Of a stretch of DNA of 15,995 bases, positions 3,001 through 6,000 are shown in pieces; positions within the stretch are counted from its first letter, which is position 1, and every line of letters starts with the position of its first letter. The DNA lies in the IMG/VR virus record IMGVR_UViG_2531839661_000011, one strand, 5' to 3'. Source of the stretch: a virus (lineage: Duplodnaviria; Heunggongvirae; Uroviricota; Caudoviricetes). Position numbers: made by a program.

Positions 3001-6000
3001 CAGGCTATCACGAAAGCCGTGACGGACTCAAAGCACTGGGCGCAGAACGTCACCATTACATTAATCTGGCACGCGCAGAGAACCGTGTTACAGGTCTGGT
3101 GGCTGGAGAACGCAGCACAGCCAGCGAGCAACAGTTAGGCTTACTGATAGTCATGCAGAAAATCGAGCAGGCAGCATTTGACGAGGCGATACAGAGCGGC
3201 ATGACACCGACCGAAGCGGTGCGGGAGGTTGCCTGCCGCATGGAGACGTTCGCCAGCCTGATGACGTCAGCGCCGTCTCTGGGGGTGAATCATGCGTAAT
3301 TATGTTATCCCTCCCAATCATGAAGGCGGTTATATTTATGTGGCGCTTTCTGACATTGGATTAGTTAAGGTTGGAAAAACCAGAAATGTTTCAGCCAGAA
3401 TGAAACAGCTATCCACTGGTAGCGGCATAGTAATCACTAAAGTCGAGGTGTTAGGGCCATTTGTTAATTACGGACAAGTCGAATTAGCTATTCATGCAAA
3501 ACTTACATCAGAACGCCGTTCTGGTGAGTGGTTTTCTGCTGATTTTGATACGGTTAAAGCAATTGCTATCGATACATCAGGAATAGGTACTCCTGGTGCG
3601 GAATTAGTTAACAACGATGCTTATCGCTACGAACGCGTGTTTTTATGGTTTAGTGCGCATGAGGAACAAATTAAATACGAACAAGCACTTTGCGAAATAT
3701 TATCTGATACGGCAATTAACTTTCTTAAGGAGTATGGCACAGCTTGCGCCCCATATGTTGCTTTATGTATTCACACAATGGGGGGTGTAACTCTTCAACA
3801 GGGACAAAAGGCCTACTCTGTATATCCTTGTGGATTTAAAGAGTCCACATTGGATCAGTTAAGGGAGGATTGGAATAATTTTGCAGATAAAGATATTTTC
3901 GAAGACTCTGATTTTGATGATTTTCTTATAGACATAAGTGATAAAGATAAATTTAAGTCAGAAGCTGAGGAATGGAGAACTGATGCAATAAATAATCTTT
4001 TCACAGAACTCACCGATGATTACCAGCGCTGGCTGGCCCGTCGCATGGGAGAGCATGAACATGCCTGACATCCTCAAACCTGCTGTCCGGTACATCGACA
4101 CGGCGGATAAGTTCGCACTACTGAACATCAACCATGCTGATTACATGCGCCATATCGTGAGCCATTTCGCCGCTGAGCGCATGAAACACGTTAAGCATTA
4201 TCAGAAGGAGGCTTTATCAAATTATCGCACTGGTGGCCCTGTACGGCGCGAATATCCGCATGATGCAGGAATGGCAGGCAAAACAAAGGCGACCACGAAA
4301 GGGTCGCCAGTGGAGATAAAGGAAATCAAGCGCATCACCAACTATGCCATGAGTGTAGCTGGTGGACAATGCTATCAGCCAGGCGGTCGGTTTTTAGTGG
4401 CTTTTAACCGCCGTGGGTATTTCTCGACAAAATCTTCAAGGGCAAATTTTTTAGCTTTTGTATGTGATGCCTTTGACTCGTCATCACATGTTTTTCCGCG
4501 CCTTATCCTGTTTTCAATAAAACGGGAGGCGGCCTTTTTATTCAGCGATGAATCAATGGGGCTGCTCCCTGTTTGCTGCTCGACAATGGCATCCATGAGT
4601 AGTTGGTGTTGTAGTTGTCGTAAAAATTTCTCATCTTCTGGTGGTAAATCCATACTTATTTCCTGTACAGCGGAGCGACGCAGCACCTCACACCACGGCG
4701 CTGATGGTTGTTATTCGTTTTATGGAGTCAAAGAAGCAAAAGCGGATCGCTATCGGTTTTTAGGCGAGATTAATCGCCGTGGGTATTTGTCCAGAAATGC
4801 CTCAAGCGCAAATCGTTTTGGTCTGGTGAGAGGAGAGGGATTAAGCAAAGACTCACGTTCCAGGCGTACTTTTTCGCGCTGGCGCTCAAGTATGGATAAT
4901 GCGATTTCCTGTAATTCTTCATTTGTCATTGTCTGTACCCGTAAAGCGGTGCGCTGTAGTACCTCATATCACAGCGCAGGTATTTTTTATGGTTGTAATT
5001 TGCGTGATGATTCAGGTCGCTTTGCGACATACTGCATAAACATAAATAACGTGATGTTATTATGTGCTTTCAAAGAAAACGCAGGTATTTTTCGCACAAA
5101 CTTCTCTCGCAACACATCCGACCACTTAAGCAAAAAAGCGGCATATACTGAGGCTATCCCTTATAAAACGGGGATCGGGCGTAGGAACCCGTTTAACTGT
5201 GAGGCGACAAATGACGCCAGAAGCGTCTTTTTTTCTGCCAGCGATTTACGCCATATCAATGGTGTTGTGCATTGTGCGTACCCGTGCACCATCCAGTCAT
5301 TTCACGAGTTGCATTTTGCACAGCGCCACCAGCAAACAATGGTGATGCTGGCGGGGCTACCGAAAGGTAGGCCGGAGTCCTTACAGTCCGGTATTCCTAC
5401 CCCCGCCAGTGTCACCGCCCTGTGTGAGCGTAGGAACTCCAGCGGTGACGTTATTTATCACTGTAAGGAGGCTGCCACTATGGCTACTACCCCTACCCTG
5501 GTACATTCTCAAACCGCCTTCATCTGGCGCTTTATCACTGTTGGCACGTCAGAACGTCAAATCATCCACGTAACCGCCTGGACGGAACTCGAAGCGCGTA
5601 ACCGTTGCCCGTCAGGTTGCGTTGCTGTATTCGCCGCCCGTATCCGTCAGGAGGCATCACATGGATAAAAACATGTTGATCGCCTCTTCTTTCGGGCTGT
5701 ATGATGCCGGAGTCGCCCACATGGCGACCGGGTTTAGCAGCCTGAATAAATTGGCGGACAGCCGCCCATATCCGATAAGCGGTTTTTTTGTGTCCGTAAA
5801 CCTACCCATACCCGCATTATGGCGGGGCGTAACGGGGGAGCCTTTGCGCTCGCTGGTTTCCCAATTTGCCAGTCTGCTAACCCTGTTACGTCTCGCCACC
5901 ACGTTTAGCAGCGTAGTAGCGAGACTCCTTAACATTAAATTGGGAGCCTTTCACATGGCTGTATCCGCACGCCCTTACTTTGTCTGGCGCTTTATGCAGT

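What the first reader, a model, noticed from the sequence alone, without database searches (positions are those of the whole stretch)
4375..5000. Tandemly duplicated small minus-strand genes with conserved KYPRRL C-termini, hidden beneath a 550-codon stop-free plus frame
Two adjacent units, each a leader plus a small ORF, are duplicated. Both leaders carry a hairpin with a conserved loop. The C-terminal motif FALE(D/A)F(V/L)(E/D)KYPRRL is kept through synonymous codon changes (gcc/gcg, gaa/gag, cgg/cga), which argues for selection on the minus-strand frame. The long plus-strand ORF over the same region translates to Cys/Ser-rich low-plausibility sequence. The unit sits where an immunity or repressor function would be expected, divergent from the replication operon.
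Basis: seen in the sequence. Interest (0 to 1): 0.6.

Follow-up and report, generated by a model that had tools for sequence, protein, structure and literature searches.

The report
Small antisense genes inside satellite read-through frame
Two small genes of an uncharacterised E. coli protein family lie on one strand of a phage-satellite control region, while the opposite strand over them is kept free of stop codons as part of a long frame, apparently so that ribosomes can keep moving, as in satellite phage P4's eta gene.

Summary
Window 4375-5000 holds two minus-strand ORFs, of 92 aa (4653→4375) and 59 aa (4929→4750). They share the C-terminus FALExF(V/L)xKYPRRL..KNR, and a conserved stem-loop precedes each. 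All of this lies under a 550-codon stop-free plus frame.

The small ORFs are real genes. They belong to a small family seen only in Escherichia and Shigella records (14 clusters, 56-94 aa, no known domain). Amino-acid conservation favours their frame, the leader hairpin shows compensatory changes, and an intrinsic terminator follows.

The plus frame, however, is not noise. It is the homolog of phage P4 eta/kil. It appears translationally coupled to the upstream gene, runs through isrK/seqA-like and C4/CI immunity-RNA genes, and ends in a nested Icd/Kil-like ORF. In about 30 related elements the same antisense frame stays open for 200-765 codons, against 9-95 in the other two antisense frames. 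Its amino-acid sequence is nevertheless unconstrained.

The best reading is that translation of the plus frame protects read-through transcripts from Rho, and that a small regulatory operon is embedded antisense within it. The function of the small proteins is unknown. I infer that they bind nucleic acid and act as regulators.

The parts
4750..4929 (-). Small gene 2 (59 aa): MTNEELQEIALSILERQREKVRLERESLLNPSPLTRPKRFALEAFLDKYPRRLISPKNR. It is promoter-proximal and a member of the KYPRRL small-protein family.
   Evidence: ORF list. Family profile score 88 bits. Relatives P0004, P0005, P0008 and others. The AF2 model shows helix 3-29, helix 41-48 and a basic tail, with pLDDT 83.
4375..4653 (-). 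Small gene 1 (92 aa), from ATG 4653: MDLPPEDEKF...KKFALEDFVEKYPRRLKATKNRPPG. It is the distal paralog.
   Evidence: P0001, 93% identical. Annotated as WP_000365496.1 in identical DNA of AP042695. Exact sequence found on 16 contigs.
4951..4977 (-). Leader stem-loop of gene 2. The minus-strand RNA is GCGCUGUGAU-AUGAGGU-ACUACAGCGC. It is followed by ..ACGGG-N8-ATG.
   Evidence: Fold. Family alignment and pair counts.
4675..4701 (-). Leader stem-loop of gene 1. The minus-strand RNA is GCGCCGUGGU-GUGAGGU-GCUGCGUCGC, with G.U pairs. It is followed by ACAGGAAAUAAGU-AUG.
4288..4308 (-). Intrinsic terminator of the minus-strand operon: GGCGACCCTTTCGTGGTCGCC followed by TTTGTTTT. It lies 67 nt after the stop of gene 1.
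   Evidence: Terminator scan. Equivalent hairpins with changed stems (GGCCACC..GGTGGCC plus a T run) follow the gene in other elements.
4055..5668 (+). Eta/kil-like long ORF. The stop-free frame runs from 3992, and the first ATG is at 4016. The likely starts are ATG 4055 or 4061, which overlap the stop (4066-4068) of the upstream GIY-YIG/T5orf172 gene. The ORF runs antisense over both small genes, their hairpins and their terminator, then through the isrK-like and C4 RNA genes.
   Evidence: Phage_ASH at aa 377-498; Icd-like at aa 502-545. P4 comparison.
5480..5668 (+). Nested kil/Icd-like ORF (62 aa, MATTPTLVHSQTAFIWRF...VFAARIRQEASHG). It is in the same frame as the long ORF. Its SD lies inside the C4-1 target ACTGTAAGGAGG (5460-5471).
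   Evidence: Sequence. NCBIfam NF033153. Same layout as P4 kil within eta (PMC10111431).
5156..5233 (+). isrK/seqA-like element, the upstream target region for the C4/CI RNA. A c4-a1b1 match lies at 5143-5195.
   Evidence: Rfam: isrK 49.6 bits (gathering score 50) and c4-a1b1 24.6 bits, E=0.0011.
5335..5422 (+). C4/CI-type immunity antisense RNA, copy 1.
   Evidence: Rfam RF01695, 69 bits.
5661..6125 (+). Second eta-like ORF. Its ATG 5661 overlaps stop 5666-5668. It contains C4 copy 2 (5815-5903) and a second nested Icd-like ORF (ATG 5955). Its stop, 6123-6125, overlaps the next ATG at 6118.

Best explanation
The locus is the control ('Bro'/immunity) zone of an E. coli P4-like or PICI-type phage satellite. 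Its gene order is int, alpA-like, Rha, GIY-YIG, then this locus, then Icd, primase, SSB, ProQ and PerC. Two functional layers overlap on opposite strands.

(1) Minus strand. This is a bicistronic operon of two paralogous small proteins. Each has an N-terminal helix, a Pro-rich linker, a short helix FALExF and a basic tail KYPRRLKxxKNR(PPG). A conserved 5' stem-loop with loop GUGAGGU precedes each, about 20 nt upstream of a weak SD. An intrinsic terminator at 4308-4288 closes the operon. This part is shown.

(2) Plus strand. This is the homolog of phage P4 eta/kil. It is a long ORF that appears translationally coupled to the upstream gene. It crosses the antisense operon and the isrK/seqA-like and C4/CI RNA genes, and ends in the nested Kil/Icd-like ORF. 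Selection acts on its openness, not on its amino-acid sequence. This part is shown.

By analogy with P4, ribosomes translating this frame on transcripts from an upstream promoter prevent Rho-dependent termination. Those transcripts would then escape C4 immunity and reach the primase operon. This step is inferred.

I infer with low confidence that the small proteins are nucleic-acid-binding regulators of this switch. The invariant hairpin and the invariant basic tail almost always occur together. That suggests the proteins bind their own leader hairpin (autoregulation) or the same inverted repeat in DNA. The operon's transcript, being fully complementary to the eta-like mRNA, could also hinder translation of the latter in the repressed state.
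For: Small genes
- The profile of 8 members finds 15 proteins at E<=1e-3 among 1.84 billion, including the query family's own P0001. Fourteen of them are small proteins of 56-94 aa with the same architecture; the fifteenth (P0020) is a repetitive 261-aa chance match.
- Over 15 distinct DNA variants of the last 24 codons, the small-ORF frame has dN/dS 0.32, 64% aa identity and a BLOSUM sum of 8633.
- The overlapping antisense frame scores 0.57, 56% and 5656.
- Within the window pair, pN/pS is 0.41 in the minus frame and 0.75 in the plus frame.

Hairpin and terminator
- Across 19 distinct hairpin sequences, 87% of cells are paired, and 4 of 10 pairs show changes on both sides. No shuffle of 500 reached the observed pairing or covariation score.
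- Slid registers give 23-58% pairing.
- G.U cells number 23, against 11 A.C cells.
- The hairpin is followed by a family member in 25 of 28 distinct hairpin-led ORFs. Two others are truncated ORF1-like relatives without the FALE..KYPRRL core and one is a 38-aa fragment; a 50-aa lipoprotein-like ORF that the script paired with a divergent hairpin in L008/L014 does not start at the model's ATG.
- There is a terminator at 4308-4288, and terminator stems differ between elements while pairing is kept.

Plus frame
- The frame matches Phage_ASH and Icd-like domains.
- C4 and isrK lie inside it, just as they lie inside P4 eta.
- The start and stop overlaps ATGAACATGCCTGA, ATGGATAA and ATGCTTAA are read from the sequence.
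- The frame is stop-free for 200-765 codons in about 30 distinct loci. The other antisense frames are open for only 9-95 codons.
- The chance of zero stops in window 4375-5143 is about 1.5e-5.
- Given each small protein's sequence, synonymous recoding gives zero antisense stops with P = 0.11-0.61 per ORF, yet all 20 variants have zero.
- The plus-frame stretch 4055-4374 compared with L006 has pN/pS 4.9, with differences [8,9,2] by codon position. There is thus no amino-acid constraint.

Natural control
- In the decayed O157:H7 island there is no C4, Icd or primase. The long frame there is broken down to 95 codons, while the small ORF stays intact.

P4 mechanism
- The mechanism is summarised in PMC10111431, citing Forti et al. 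1999.
Against: - No expression data were available. No promoter for the minus operon could be identified: the sigma-70 scan found none, and the conserved ATAA upstream of the hairpin is only suggestive.
- The dN/dS contrast rests on about 24 codons and on non-independent pairs.
- Because the two frames share their third codon positions, the periodicity of substitutions cannot separate them.
- The strand of the hairpin is only moderately resolved: 87% paired on the small-ORF strand against 81% on the other. Thirteen of the 23 G.U cells come from a single column.
- Nothing ties the small proteins to any activity. There is no match in Pfam, NCBIfam, PHROGs, PDB sequences or Foldseek. The AF2 model is not globular (pTM 0.40).
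- That translation of the plus frame blocks Rho here is carried over from P4 and was not tested.
Confidence: 0.55

Rival explanations
1. Only the minus-strand small genes are functional. The 550-codon plus frame is then a chance or 'shadow' open frame with no role.
For: The plus-frame translation is Cys/Ser-rich and shows no amino-acid constraint. The two frames share wobble positions, which favours shadow ORFs. The frame is not intact everywhere: in the decayed O157:H7 island it is broken to 95 codons. PGAP annotates identical DNA both with and without the 550-aa ORF.
Against: A shadow effect cannot cover the ~210 codons that are non-coding on the minus strand. Openness recurs at 200-765 codons in about 30 different elements, and only in this frame. 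The simulated probability is about 1e-5 for the window and about 1e-6 for the joint synonymous-recoding test. The frame matches Phage_ASH and Icd-like domains and has the P4 eta/kil layout.
Confidence: 0.07
2. Only the long plus ORF is a gene, encoding a large Eta/Bro-network protein. The small minus ORFs are then untranslated shadows of it.
For: PGAP calls the 550-aa protein in CP028122. Gene callers also call long antisense ORFs in other loci, for example 353 aa in L037. A requirement for an open plus frame would by itself force indels to be multiples of three.
Against: The minus frame is the better conserved at protein level. In divergent members the changes are conservative: FALE to FAIE or FSIE, and KYPRRL to RRPRRI or KCPRRL, while the plus translation changes radically (RRGY to FRLW or TLGC). 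Every member has an ATG at a fixed distance from the hairpin and an SD-like ACAGG. Most members stop right after PPG. A terminator follows on the minus strand. The small ORF survives intact where the long frame is broken (O157).
Confidence: 0.06
3. The minus ORFs are translated, but act in cis or as RNA rather than through a diffusible protein. They could be leader or arrest peptides, with a conserved ~23-residue C-terminus ending in R-P-P-G-stop and a variable N-terminus. Alternatively the transcript could be mainly an antisense RNA against the eta-like mRNA, with the hairpin loop as the kissing site.
For: Conservation is confined to the last ~23 residues, about the length of the ribosomal exit tunnel. 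The N-termini are freely replaced. PPG before a stop is a known slow-translation context (my own knowledge). The transcript is fully complementary to a frame whose translation seems to matter. The hairpin is conserved with covariation.
Against: Several members, including window gene 2 and P0015, end at KNR without PPG. No conserved downstream gene or structure sits where a stalled ribosome could act; gene 1 is followed only by a terminator 67 nt away. A cis-antisense pair would not need an invariant loop. The N-terminal helix is predicted with high confidence, with pLDDT 92-96 over residues 1-20. That points to a folded or oligomerising protein.
Confidence: 0.2
4. The small genes are the toxin or partner half of a type II toxin-antitoxin or abortive-infection pair carried by the satellite.
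For: In many related elements an RHH-like small ORF immediately precedes the KYPRRL gene. The Pfam matches to PSK_trans_fac, RHH and HicB are weak, E 0.01-0.03. Satellites often carry defence cargo.
Against: The window has two KYPRRL genes and no RHH partner. L006 has one KYPRRL gene alone. The location is the conserved regulatory zone, not a cargo hotspot. The proteins resemble no toxin.
Confidence: 0.04

Closest known systems
Phage P4 eta/kil nested genes with the CI immunity RNA (Forti et al. 1999 J Bacteriol 181:5225, as summarised in PMC10111431)
   Same: A long ORF starts upstream of the constitutive immunity promoter and follows directly on the upstream regulator gene. It contains the seqA/isrK-like site and the C4/CI RNA gene. 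It ends in a short nested Kil/Icd-like ORF in the same frame (P4; window). Downstream genes are chained by overlapping stop and start codons up to the primase.
   Different: P4 eta has about 200 codons and nothing is annotated antisense to it. Here the frame has 537-550 codons, and up to 765 in relatives. Its extra ~1.1 kb 5' part overlaps a complete antisense operon with two genes, two hairpins and a terminator, and shows no amino-acid constraint. The module is also duplicated, with a second C4 plus Icd copy. The anti-termination role is assumed here, not shown.
Phage P1/P7 c4-icd-ant immunity region (Rfam C4, RF01695; c4-a1b1, RF03163)
   Same: The C4-type RNA has a loop complementary to sites over the SD of the following icd-like gene. 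The C4-1 loop pairs with 5460-5471 and 5196-5204. The C4-2 loop pairs with 5937-5946.
   Different: No ant gene follows; a primase operon does. P1 has no known antisense small-protein operon upstream.
Gram-negative PICI / P4-like satellite 'Bro zone' (PMC10111431)
   Same: The order of zones matches: Integration (int, alpA-like), Bro (Rha, GIY-YIG/T5orf172, Phage_ASH), Replication (primase, SSB), then late genes. C4 and isrK hits fall inside Bro-zone genes.
   Different: The excerpts of that paper that I read treat the ASH/eta gene as a Bro-network protein gene and mention no opposite-strand small genes. In the papers my three completed literature searches returned, I saw no description of the KYPRRL family.
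Small basic RNA- or DNA-binding regulators with a cognate hairpin (lambda N arginine-rich motif with boxB; translational operators of phage coat or RegA proteins)
   Same: A short basic conserved peptide segment always co-occurs with a conserved stem-loop that has an invariant loop.
   Different: This is an analogy only. There is no sequence or fold similarity, binding is untested, and the loop (GUGAGGU) is SD-like rather than GNRA-like.

Membership tests
P4 eta/kil-CI type immunity module | A C4/CI-type antisense RNA gene lies inside the long ORF | tested here: met
   RF01695 at 5335-5422, 69 bits against a gathering score of 45. It lies within ORF 4016-5668.
P4 eta/kil-CI type immunity module | A seqA/isrK-like target element lies upstream of the CI RNA on the same strand | tested here: inconclusive
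   isrK scores 49.6 bits at 5156-5233, just under the gathering score of 50. c4-a1b1 scores 24.6 bits, E=0.0011. ACTGTGAGG at 5196-5204 is complementary to the C4-1 loop. The close relatives L006 and L003 pass the isrK threshold.
P4 eta/kil-CI type immunity module | A short Kil/Icd-like ORF is nested in frame at the 3' end of the long ORF, with its SD in a C4 target site | tested here: met
   ATG 5480 is in frame. NF033153 Icd-like scores 53.8 bits. The target ACTGTAAGGAGG is at 5460-5471.
P4 eta/kil-CI type immunity module | [quoted passage not shown] | tested here: met
   This holds at sequence level only. ATG 4055 and 4061 overlap the GIY-YIG stop at 4066-4068, with GGAG upstream. The same junction is present in L006 behind a different upstream gene.
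P4 eta/kil-CI type immunity module | Translation of the long ORF suppresses Rho-dependent termination of upstream-promoter transcripts | not testable with these tools
   Only indirect evidence is available: conserved openness without amino-acid constraint.
KYPRRL small-protein family (unnamed; 'hypothetical protein' in all sources) | 56-94 aa, with a C-terminal F-A-[LI]-[ED]-x-F-[LV]-x-[KR]-x-[PS]-R-x-[LMI]-[KR]-x-x-[KRH]-x-[RS]-(PP[GH]) | tested here: met
   Both window ORFs fit. Profile scores are 108.7 and 88.2 bits.
KYPRRL small-protein family (unnamed; 'hypothetical protein' in all sources) | A conserved leader stem-loop with loop GUGAGG(U/A) precedes the gene, about 20 nt before ACAGG-N8-ATG | tested here: met
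   Both window genes have it.
KYPRRL small-protein family (unnamed; 'hypothetical protein' in all sources) | The gene lies on the strand opposite to int/alpA/primase, between the Bro-type genes and the ASH/Icd-like ORF | tested here: met
   This holds for the window and for L006, L008, L036, L037, L038, L040 and L042.
Type II toxin-antitoxin pair (RHH antitoxin plus toxin) | An adjacent cognate antitoxin gene is present | tested here: not met
   There is no RHH-like ORF on the minus strand of the window. It occurs only in some relatives, and there only with sub-threshold Pfam matches.
AlpA/Xis winged-helix excisionases | Profile similarity over the (K/G)FPRRIK wing region | tested here: not met
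   hhalign probability is 0.05 against the window's own AlpA-like protein.
DUF3811 (label given by UniRef to the O157 homolog) | A Pfam model match | tested here: not met
   No DUF3811 match appeared at E<=10 for any of 19 members or for the O157 proteins.
Ribosome arrest / leader peptides | Conserved C-terminal ~20 residues with a variable N-terminus | tested here: met
   Alignment A2. This pattern is compatible with the family but not specific to it.
Ribosome arrest / leader peptides | Stalling that controls a downstream gene in cis | not testable with these tools
   No conserved downstream target is evident, and PPG is absent from window gene 2 and from P0015.

The most novel reading that the evidence does not exclude
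The satellite uses a two-strand switch. Escape from C4 RNA immunity needs ribosomes to travel more than 1 kb of sequence-unconstrained open frame. An operon embedded antisense in that very stretch gates the ribosome transit. It could do so through its complementary mRNA, with the hairpin loop as the pairing site. It could also do so through its small basic proteins binding the hairpin. Either way it would decide whether Rho terminates before the primase operon. This would be a second immunity layer acting on the transcripts that P4 biology calls immunity-insensitive. It would also be a case where selection keeps a long frame open purely so that it can be translated, while a protein family evolves on the other strand.
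Probability: 0.2. Interest if true: 0.75.

Novelty: new variant of a known kind. Interest (0 to 1): 0.55.

Why it matters
- It shows that 'which strand is the gene?' can be the wrong question. Here both strands carry selection of different kinds: protein sequence on one, mere openness on the other.
- That explains the contradictory RefSeq annotations of identical DNA. It also suggests that part of Pfam Phage_ASH is a translation running over RNA genes.
- It extends the P4 eta 'translate to avoid Rho' principle to PICI-like satellites. Sequence matching window 4370-5000 occurs in 783 of 5426 complete E. coli genomes.
- It also gives a directly testable design, since stop codons can be introduced in one frame while silent in the other.
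- It defines an unstudied small-protein family, together with a cognate RNA hairpin, at the heart of satellite lysogeny control.

Tried and rejected
- **Phage and family searches.** tblastn of both small proteins against 50,697 phage records found nothing, and P4 itself lacks the family (one search included L034). Pfam, NCBIfam, PHROGs, PDB sequence and Foldseek PDB searches gave no meaningful hit.
- **Species range.** A scan of GTDB species-representative genomes with the motif patterns gave 51 pattern matches but no confirmed relative. The most divergent members turned out to sit in E. coli chromosomes. The family thus looks restricted to Escherichia/Shigella.
- **AlpA wing.** The idea that KYPRRLK is a relic of the AlpA wing (GKFPRRIK, seen by chance in L024) was rejected by hhalign.
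- **DUF3811.** The UniRef label was not reproducible.
- **Promoter.** The sigma-70 scan found no promoter in 4000-5700. My manual candidates, including the conserved ATAA 7-9 nt before the hairpin, were not convincing.
- **Hairpin as plus-strand terminator.** Rejected. The T-run is not conserved, and G.U pairs favour the other strand.
- **Hairpin loops as C4 targets.** The leader-1 loop UGUGAGG can pair 7 nt with the C4-1 loop. But the hairpin loop is nearly invariant while C4 loops differ between elements. C4-2 and leader 2 do not match. I put this down to shared SD-likeness.
- **Codon periodicity.** This cannot discriminate the frames, because minus and plus third positions coincide (coordinates ≡ 1 mod 3).
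- **Literature.** The primary P4 paper (PMC94026) is not held in the library. I relied on its summary in PMC10111431.
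Full report
**What the window is.** The window is 100% identical to part of the chromosome of E. coli O43 RM10042 and several other STEC strains. It is an integrated element next to yicC. Its genes, in order on the plus strand, are:
- integrase (1-1263) and a hypothetical protein;
- an AlpA-like HTH (2297-2512), a Rha-family protein (2580-3299) and a GIY-YIG/T5orf172 protein (3292-4068);
- the region in question;
- small ORFs and a D5/P4-type primase (6929-8752);
- SSB, ProQ/FinO, PerC (twice), a Q antiterminator and a Bro-N protein.

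This is the Integration–Bro–Replication–Late order described for Gram-negative PICIs and P4-like satellites (PMC10111431). Rfam finds two C4/CI-type immunity RNAs on the plus strand, at 5335-5422 and 5815-5903. At a relaxed threshold it also finds an isrK/seqA-like element at 5156-5233 and a c4-a1b1 target match at 5143-5195.

**Checking the observation.**
- The minus-strand ORFs are 4929→4750 (59 aa) and 4653→4375 (92 aa from the conserved ATG).
- Their 3' ends are a 75-nt direct repeat at 75% identity.
- It encodes KRFALEAFLDKYPRRLISPKNR and KKFALEDFVEKYPRRLKATKNR.
- The 15 differences fall 4, 3 and 8 on codon positions 1, 2 and 3.
- Each ORF is preceded by a stem-loop, at + strand coordinates 4951-4977 and 4675-4701. 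The loop is (A/G)UGAGGU.
- The plus frame 4016-5668 has 550 codons.

One correction is needed. The two genes are not a simple recent duplication. Only the leader (35/50 identical) and the last ~25 codons are alike. The N-terminal parts belong to two subtypes. The gene-2 subtype occurs alone in a sister island at the same integration site (L006). Both subtypes occur together in the decayed iha/tellurite island of O157:H7, where the gene-1 subtype lacks the FALE..KYPRRL core (L004).

**Are the small ORFs genes? Yes.** An exhaustive profile search of 1.84 billion representative proteins found 15 proteins at E≤1e-3.
- Fourteen are small proteins of 56-94 aa, one of them the query family's own P0001.
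- They share one plan: a helical N-terminal part, a proline-rich linker, and F-A-[LI]-[ED]-x-F-[LV]-x-K-[YHC]-P-R-R-[LIM]-K-x-x-K-N-R-P-P-G.
- The fifteenth (P0020) is a repetitive 261-aa chance match.

I recovered DNA for 15 distinct variants of the last 24 codons (IMG/VR loci; contigs of the divergent members).

| Frame | dN/dS | aa identity | BLOSUM62 sum |
|---|---|---|---|
| Small-ORF frame | 0.32 | 64% | 8633 |
| Overlapping antisense frame | 0.57 | 56% | 5656 |

In divergent members the small-ORF changes are conservative: FALE→FAIE or FSIE, and KYPRRL→RRPRRI or KCPRRL. The opposite-strand translation changes radically, for example RRGY→FRLW.

Further support comes from the gene structure:
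- Every member has its ATG at a fixed distance from the hairpin and from an SD-like ACAGG.
- Most members stop right after PPG.
- A good intrinsic terminator lies 67 nt after gene 1 on the minus strand: GGCGACCCTTTCGTGGTCGCC followed by TTTGTTTT, at 4308→4288.
- Equivalent terminators with different stem sequences follow the gene in other elements.

All sources call these proteins 'hypothetical'. A UniRef 'DUF3811' label could not be reproduced.

**The leader hairpin.** nhmmer recovered about 30 distinct copies in the fetched loci. The consensus is ATAA-N7-9-GCGCCGUGGU-GUGAGGU-ACUNCGGCGC-AUUGCUUUACAGG-N8-AUG.
- On 19 distinct sequences the 10-bp stem is 87% paired, and four pairs change on both sides (for example C-G↔U-A). 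No shuffle of 500 reached the observed pairing or covariation score.
- Slid registers give 23-58% pairing.
- G·U cells outnumber A·C cells 23 to 11. This favours an RNA hairpin on the small-ORF strand. The support is only moderate, because 13 of the G·U cells come from one column.

The hairpin is followed by a family member in 25 of 28 distinct hairpin-led ORFs, including more distant paralogs such as ...FVLDEFLKKYSR...PPA and ...FALKDFLKQHSS.... Two others are truncated ORF1-like relatives without the FALE..KYPRRL core, and one is a 38-aa fragment. A 50-aa lipoprotein-like ORF that the script paired with a divergent hairpin in L008/L014 does not start at the model's ATG. Hairpin and protein are therefore one unit.

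**The plus frame is not noise.**

First, its 3' third is recognisable. Pfam Phage_ASH matches aa 377-498, and NCBIfam Icd-like matches aa 502-545.

Second, its anatomy is that of phage P4 eta/kil.
- In P4, the long ORF 8168-8812 follows vis (ORF88). It contains the isrK/seqA (8615-8692) and C4/CI (8420-8507) RNA genes, and ends with the Kil peptide.
- In the window, ATG 4055/4061 overlaps the stop of the upstream gene (ATGAACATGCCTGA).
- The frame crosses the isrK-like and C4 elements.
- A 62-codon Icd/Kil-like ORF starts in frame at 5480. Its SD lies inside ACTGTAAGGAGG, which is complementary to the C4-1 loop AGUCCUUACAGU.
- Its stop overlaps the next ATG (ATGGATAA, 5661). That ATG opens a second, shorter eta-like ORF with the second C4 and Icd copy. 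This ORF in turn overlaps the next start (ATGCTTAA, 6118).

Third, openness is conserved.
- In about 30 distinct loci the antisense frame that shares wobble positions with the small gene is stop-free for 200-765 codons.
- In about half of them it ends in ..VFAARIRQE..; the other two antisense frames are open for only 9-95 codons.
- In the window, 4375-5143 has 0 stops in this frame against 11 and 18 in the others. Only 3 of 200,000 Markov simulations reached zero.
- A shadow-ORF effect does not explain this. Resampling synonymous codons for each small protein gives zero antisense stops with P = 0.11-0.61 per ORF, yet all 20 variants have zero.
- About 210 codons of the open stretch are non-coding on the minus strand.

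Fourth, the amino-acid sequence is not constrained. Between the window and L006, the stretch 4055-4374 has pN/pS 4.9, with differences 8, 9 and 2 by codon position. The length and content of this part vary widely between elements.

Fifth, there is a natural control. In the decayed O157:H7 copy, which has lost C4, Icd and primase, the long frame is broken to 95 codons while the small ORF is intact.

**How it most likely works.** For P4, PMC10111431 summarises Forti et al. 1999 as follows. Transcripts from the constitutive promoter inside eta are terminated through the CI/seqA interactions. Transcripts from the upstream late promoter are translated through eta, which is coupled to the alpA homolog, and this translation prevents termination.

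The window shows every sequence feature of that arrangement. I therefore infer the same mechanism. The plus frame would be a translated spacer that keeps Rho off read-through transcripts until the primase operon is reached.

What is new here is that ~1.1 kb of this spacer carries a complete antisense operon. For the small proteins there is only circumstantial evidence:
- They sit in the regulatory zone, divergent from the immunity promoter.
- In many relatives an RHH-like ORF precedes them (weak Pfam matches).
- AF2 predicts a confident long helix, a short helix and a basic tail without a globular fold (pLDDT 83, pTM 0.40).
- Their invariant basic tail almost always co-occurs with the invariant hairpin.

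My working model is that they are small nucleic-acid-binding regulators that recognise the hairpin. Their mRNA may additionally interfere with translation of the complementary eta-like mRNA. I hold this with low confidence. A cis-acting leader or arrest-peptide role, or a mainly antisense-RNA role, is the main rival.

**Comparison with what is known, and novelty.** The plus-strand part is a member of the P4 eta/kil–CI and P1 c4–icd kind of immunity module. All the sequence-level defining features were tested and met. The exception is isrK, which is 0.4 bits under threshold here but above it in sister loci. The functional feature could not be tested.

The minus-strand family matches nothing known. 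I also found no description of it, or of antisense genes within eta-like ORFs, in the papers that my three completed literature searches returned.

The family seems confined to Escherichia/Shigella. A scan of species-representative genomes found none. The divergent members all sit in E. coli chromosomes. Sequence matching 4370-5000 is present in 783 of 5426 complete E. coli genomes.

I rate this a new variant of a known kind. It is of moderate interest because of the clean two-strand selection signal and its direct testability. It is limited by the unknown function of the proteins and by the narrow host range.

Noticed in passing
window 5143-6125 (+): The immunity module is itself duplicated in tandem. 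Copy 1 is isrK-like 5156-5233, C4 5335-5422 and an Icd-like ORF 5480-5668. Copy 2 is C4 5815-5903 and an Icd-like ORF 5955-6125. Each C4 loop matches a site over the SD of its own Icd gene. AGUCCUUACAGU pairs with ACTGTAAGGAGG at 5460-5471. UUUCCCAAUUUG pairs with AAATTGGGAG at 5937-5946. That suggests two immunity specificities in one element. PGAP marks the second ORF as 'frameshifted'.
   Followed up: partly
window 5144-5509 (+): The Pfam Phage_ASH match lies exactly over the isrK-like and C4 RNA genes. At least part of that protein family's conservation may therefore reflect conserved RNA genes read in an open frame.
   Followed up: partly
window 4016-5668; L001 and L002: RefSeq/PGAP annotates identical DNA in two ways. 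CP028122 has a 550-aa 'Icd-like protein'. AP042695 has a 92-aa minus-strand hypothetical protein plus a 258-aa plus ORF. The 59-aa gene 2 is annotated in neither, and its exact sequence is absent from the 15-billion-protein collection.
   Followed up: yes
window 4975-4987 and 5080-5092: There is an exact 13-nt direct repeat, CGCAGGTATTTTT, with copies 105 bp apart. The copies flank the region between the gene-2 hairpin and the immunity promoter block. The repeat is exact in the window and L006, partly kept in L004, and not kept in L040. It could be an operator pair or a small duplication.
   Followed up: partly
window 5105-5150 (+); L004, L006, L040: The block CACATCCGACCACTTAAGCAAAAAAGCGGCATATACTG is strongly conserved just upstream of the isrK-like element in all four compared loci. 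It is probably the constitutive PLE-like promoter (-10 TATACT). No good -35 element is evident.
   Followed up: no
L008 3614-3793 and 4349-4660; L037, L038, L019, L042, L024: In many related elements an RHH-like ORF of 59-103 aa (..KSQxLxARxPHEV..GES..FIVTAMRGEI..) immediately precedes the hairpin and KYPRRL gene. Its conserved tail is RRQRRKAKESE*, and its stop codon lies 7-9 nt before the hairpin. Each such ORF has a GTGTATACTG motif upstream.
   Followed up: partly
L040 4001-4787; L008/L014 4649-4867: L040 carries three tandem paralogs of the family. In L008 and L014 a divergent copy of the hairpin lies just upstream of a 50-aa ORF with a lipoprotein-like signal (MLKLKKHVPMMVALIITIFLLISC).
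   Followed up: no
window 9795-10427, 10387-10689, 11618-12082, 13418-13816: The island also encodes a ProQ/FinO-family RNA chaperone, two PerC-type activators and a Q-type antiterminator. A ProQ/FinO protein beside an antisense-RNA immunity system and conserved hairpins is a possible functional link.
   Followed up: no
L004 (E. coli O157:H7 ATCC 43890, iha island) 4715-5500: O157:H7 and many other STEC strains carry a decayed copy of this region. An intact 62-aa family member is seen on at least 1000 contigs. Beside it are a C-terminally truncated ORF1-like gene ending in KTRPPH and a further 64-aa minus ORF. The copy lies near the Esr41 sRNA gene and has no C4, Icd or primase.
   Followed up: partly
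window 4682-4688 (minus-strand leader-1 loop) and 5335-5422: The leader-1 loop UGUGAGG is identical to the core of the seqA-like C4-1 target at 5198-5204. It can pair 7 nt with the C4-1 loop. The match does not hold for leader 2 with C4-2, nor across elements, so it is probably SD-likeness.
   Followed up: partly
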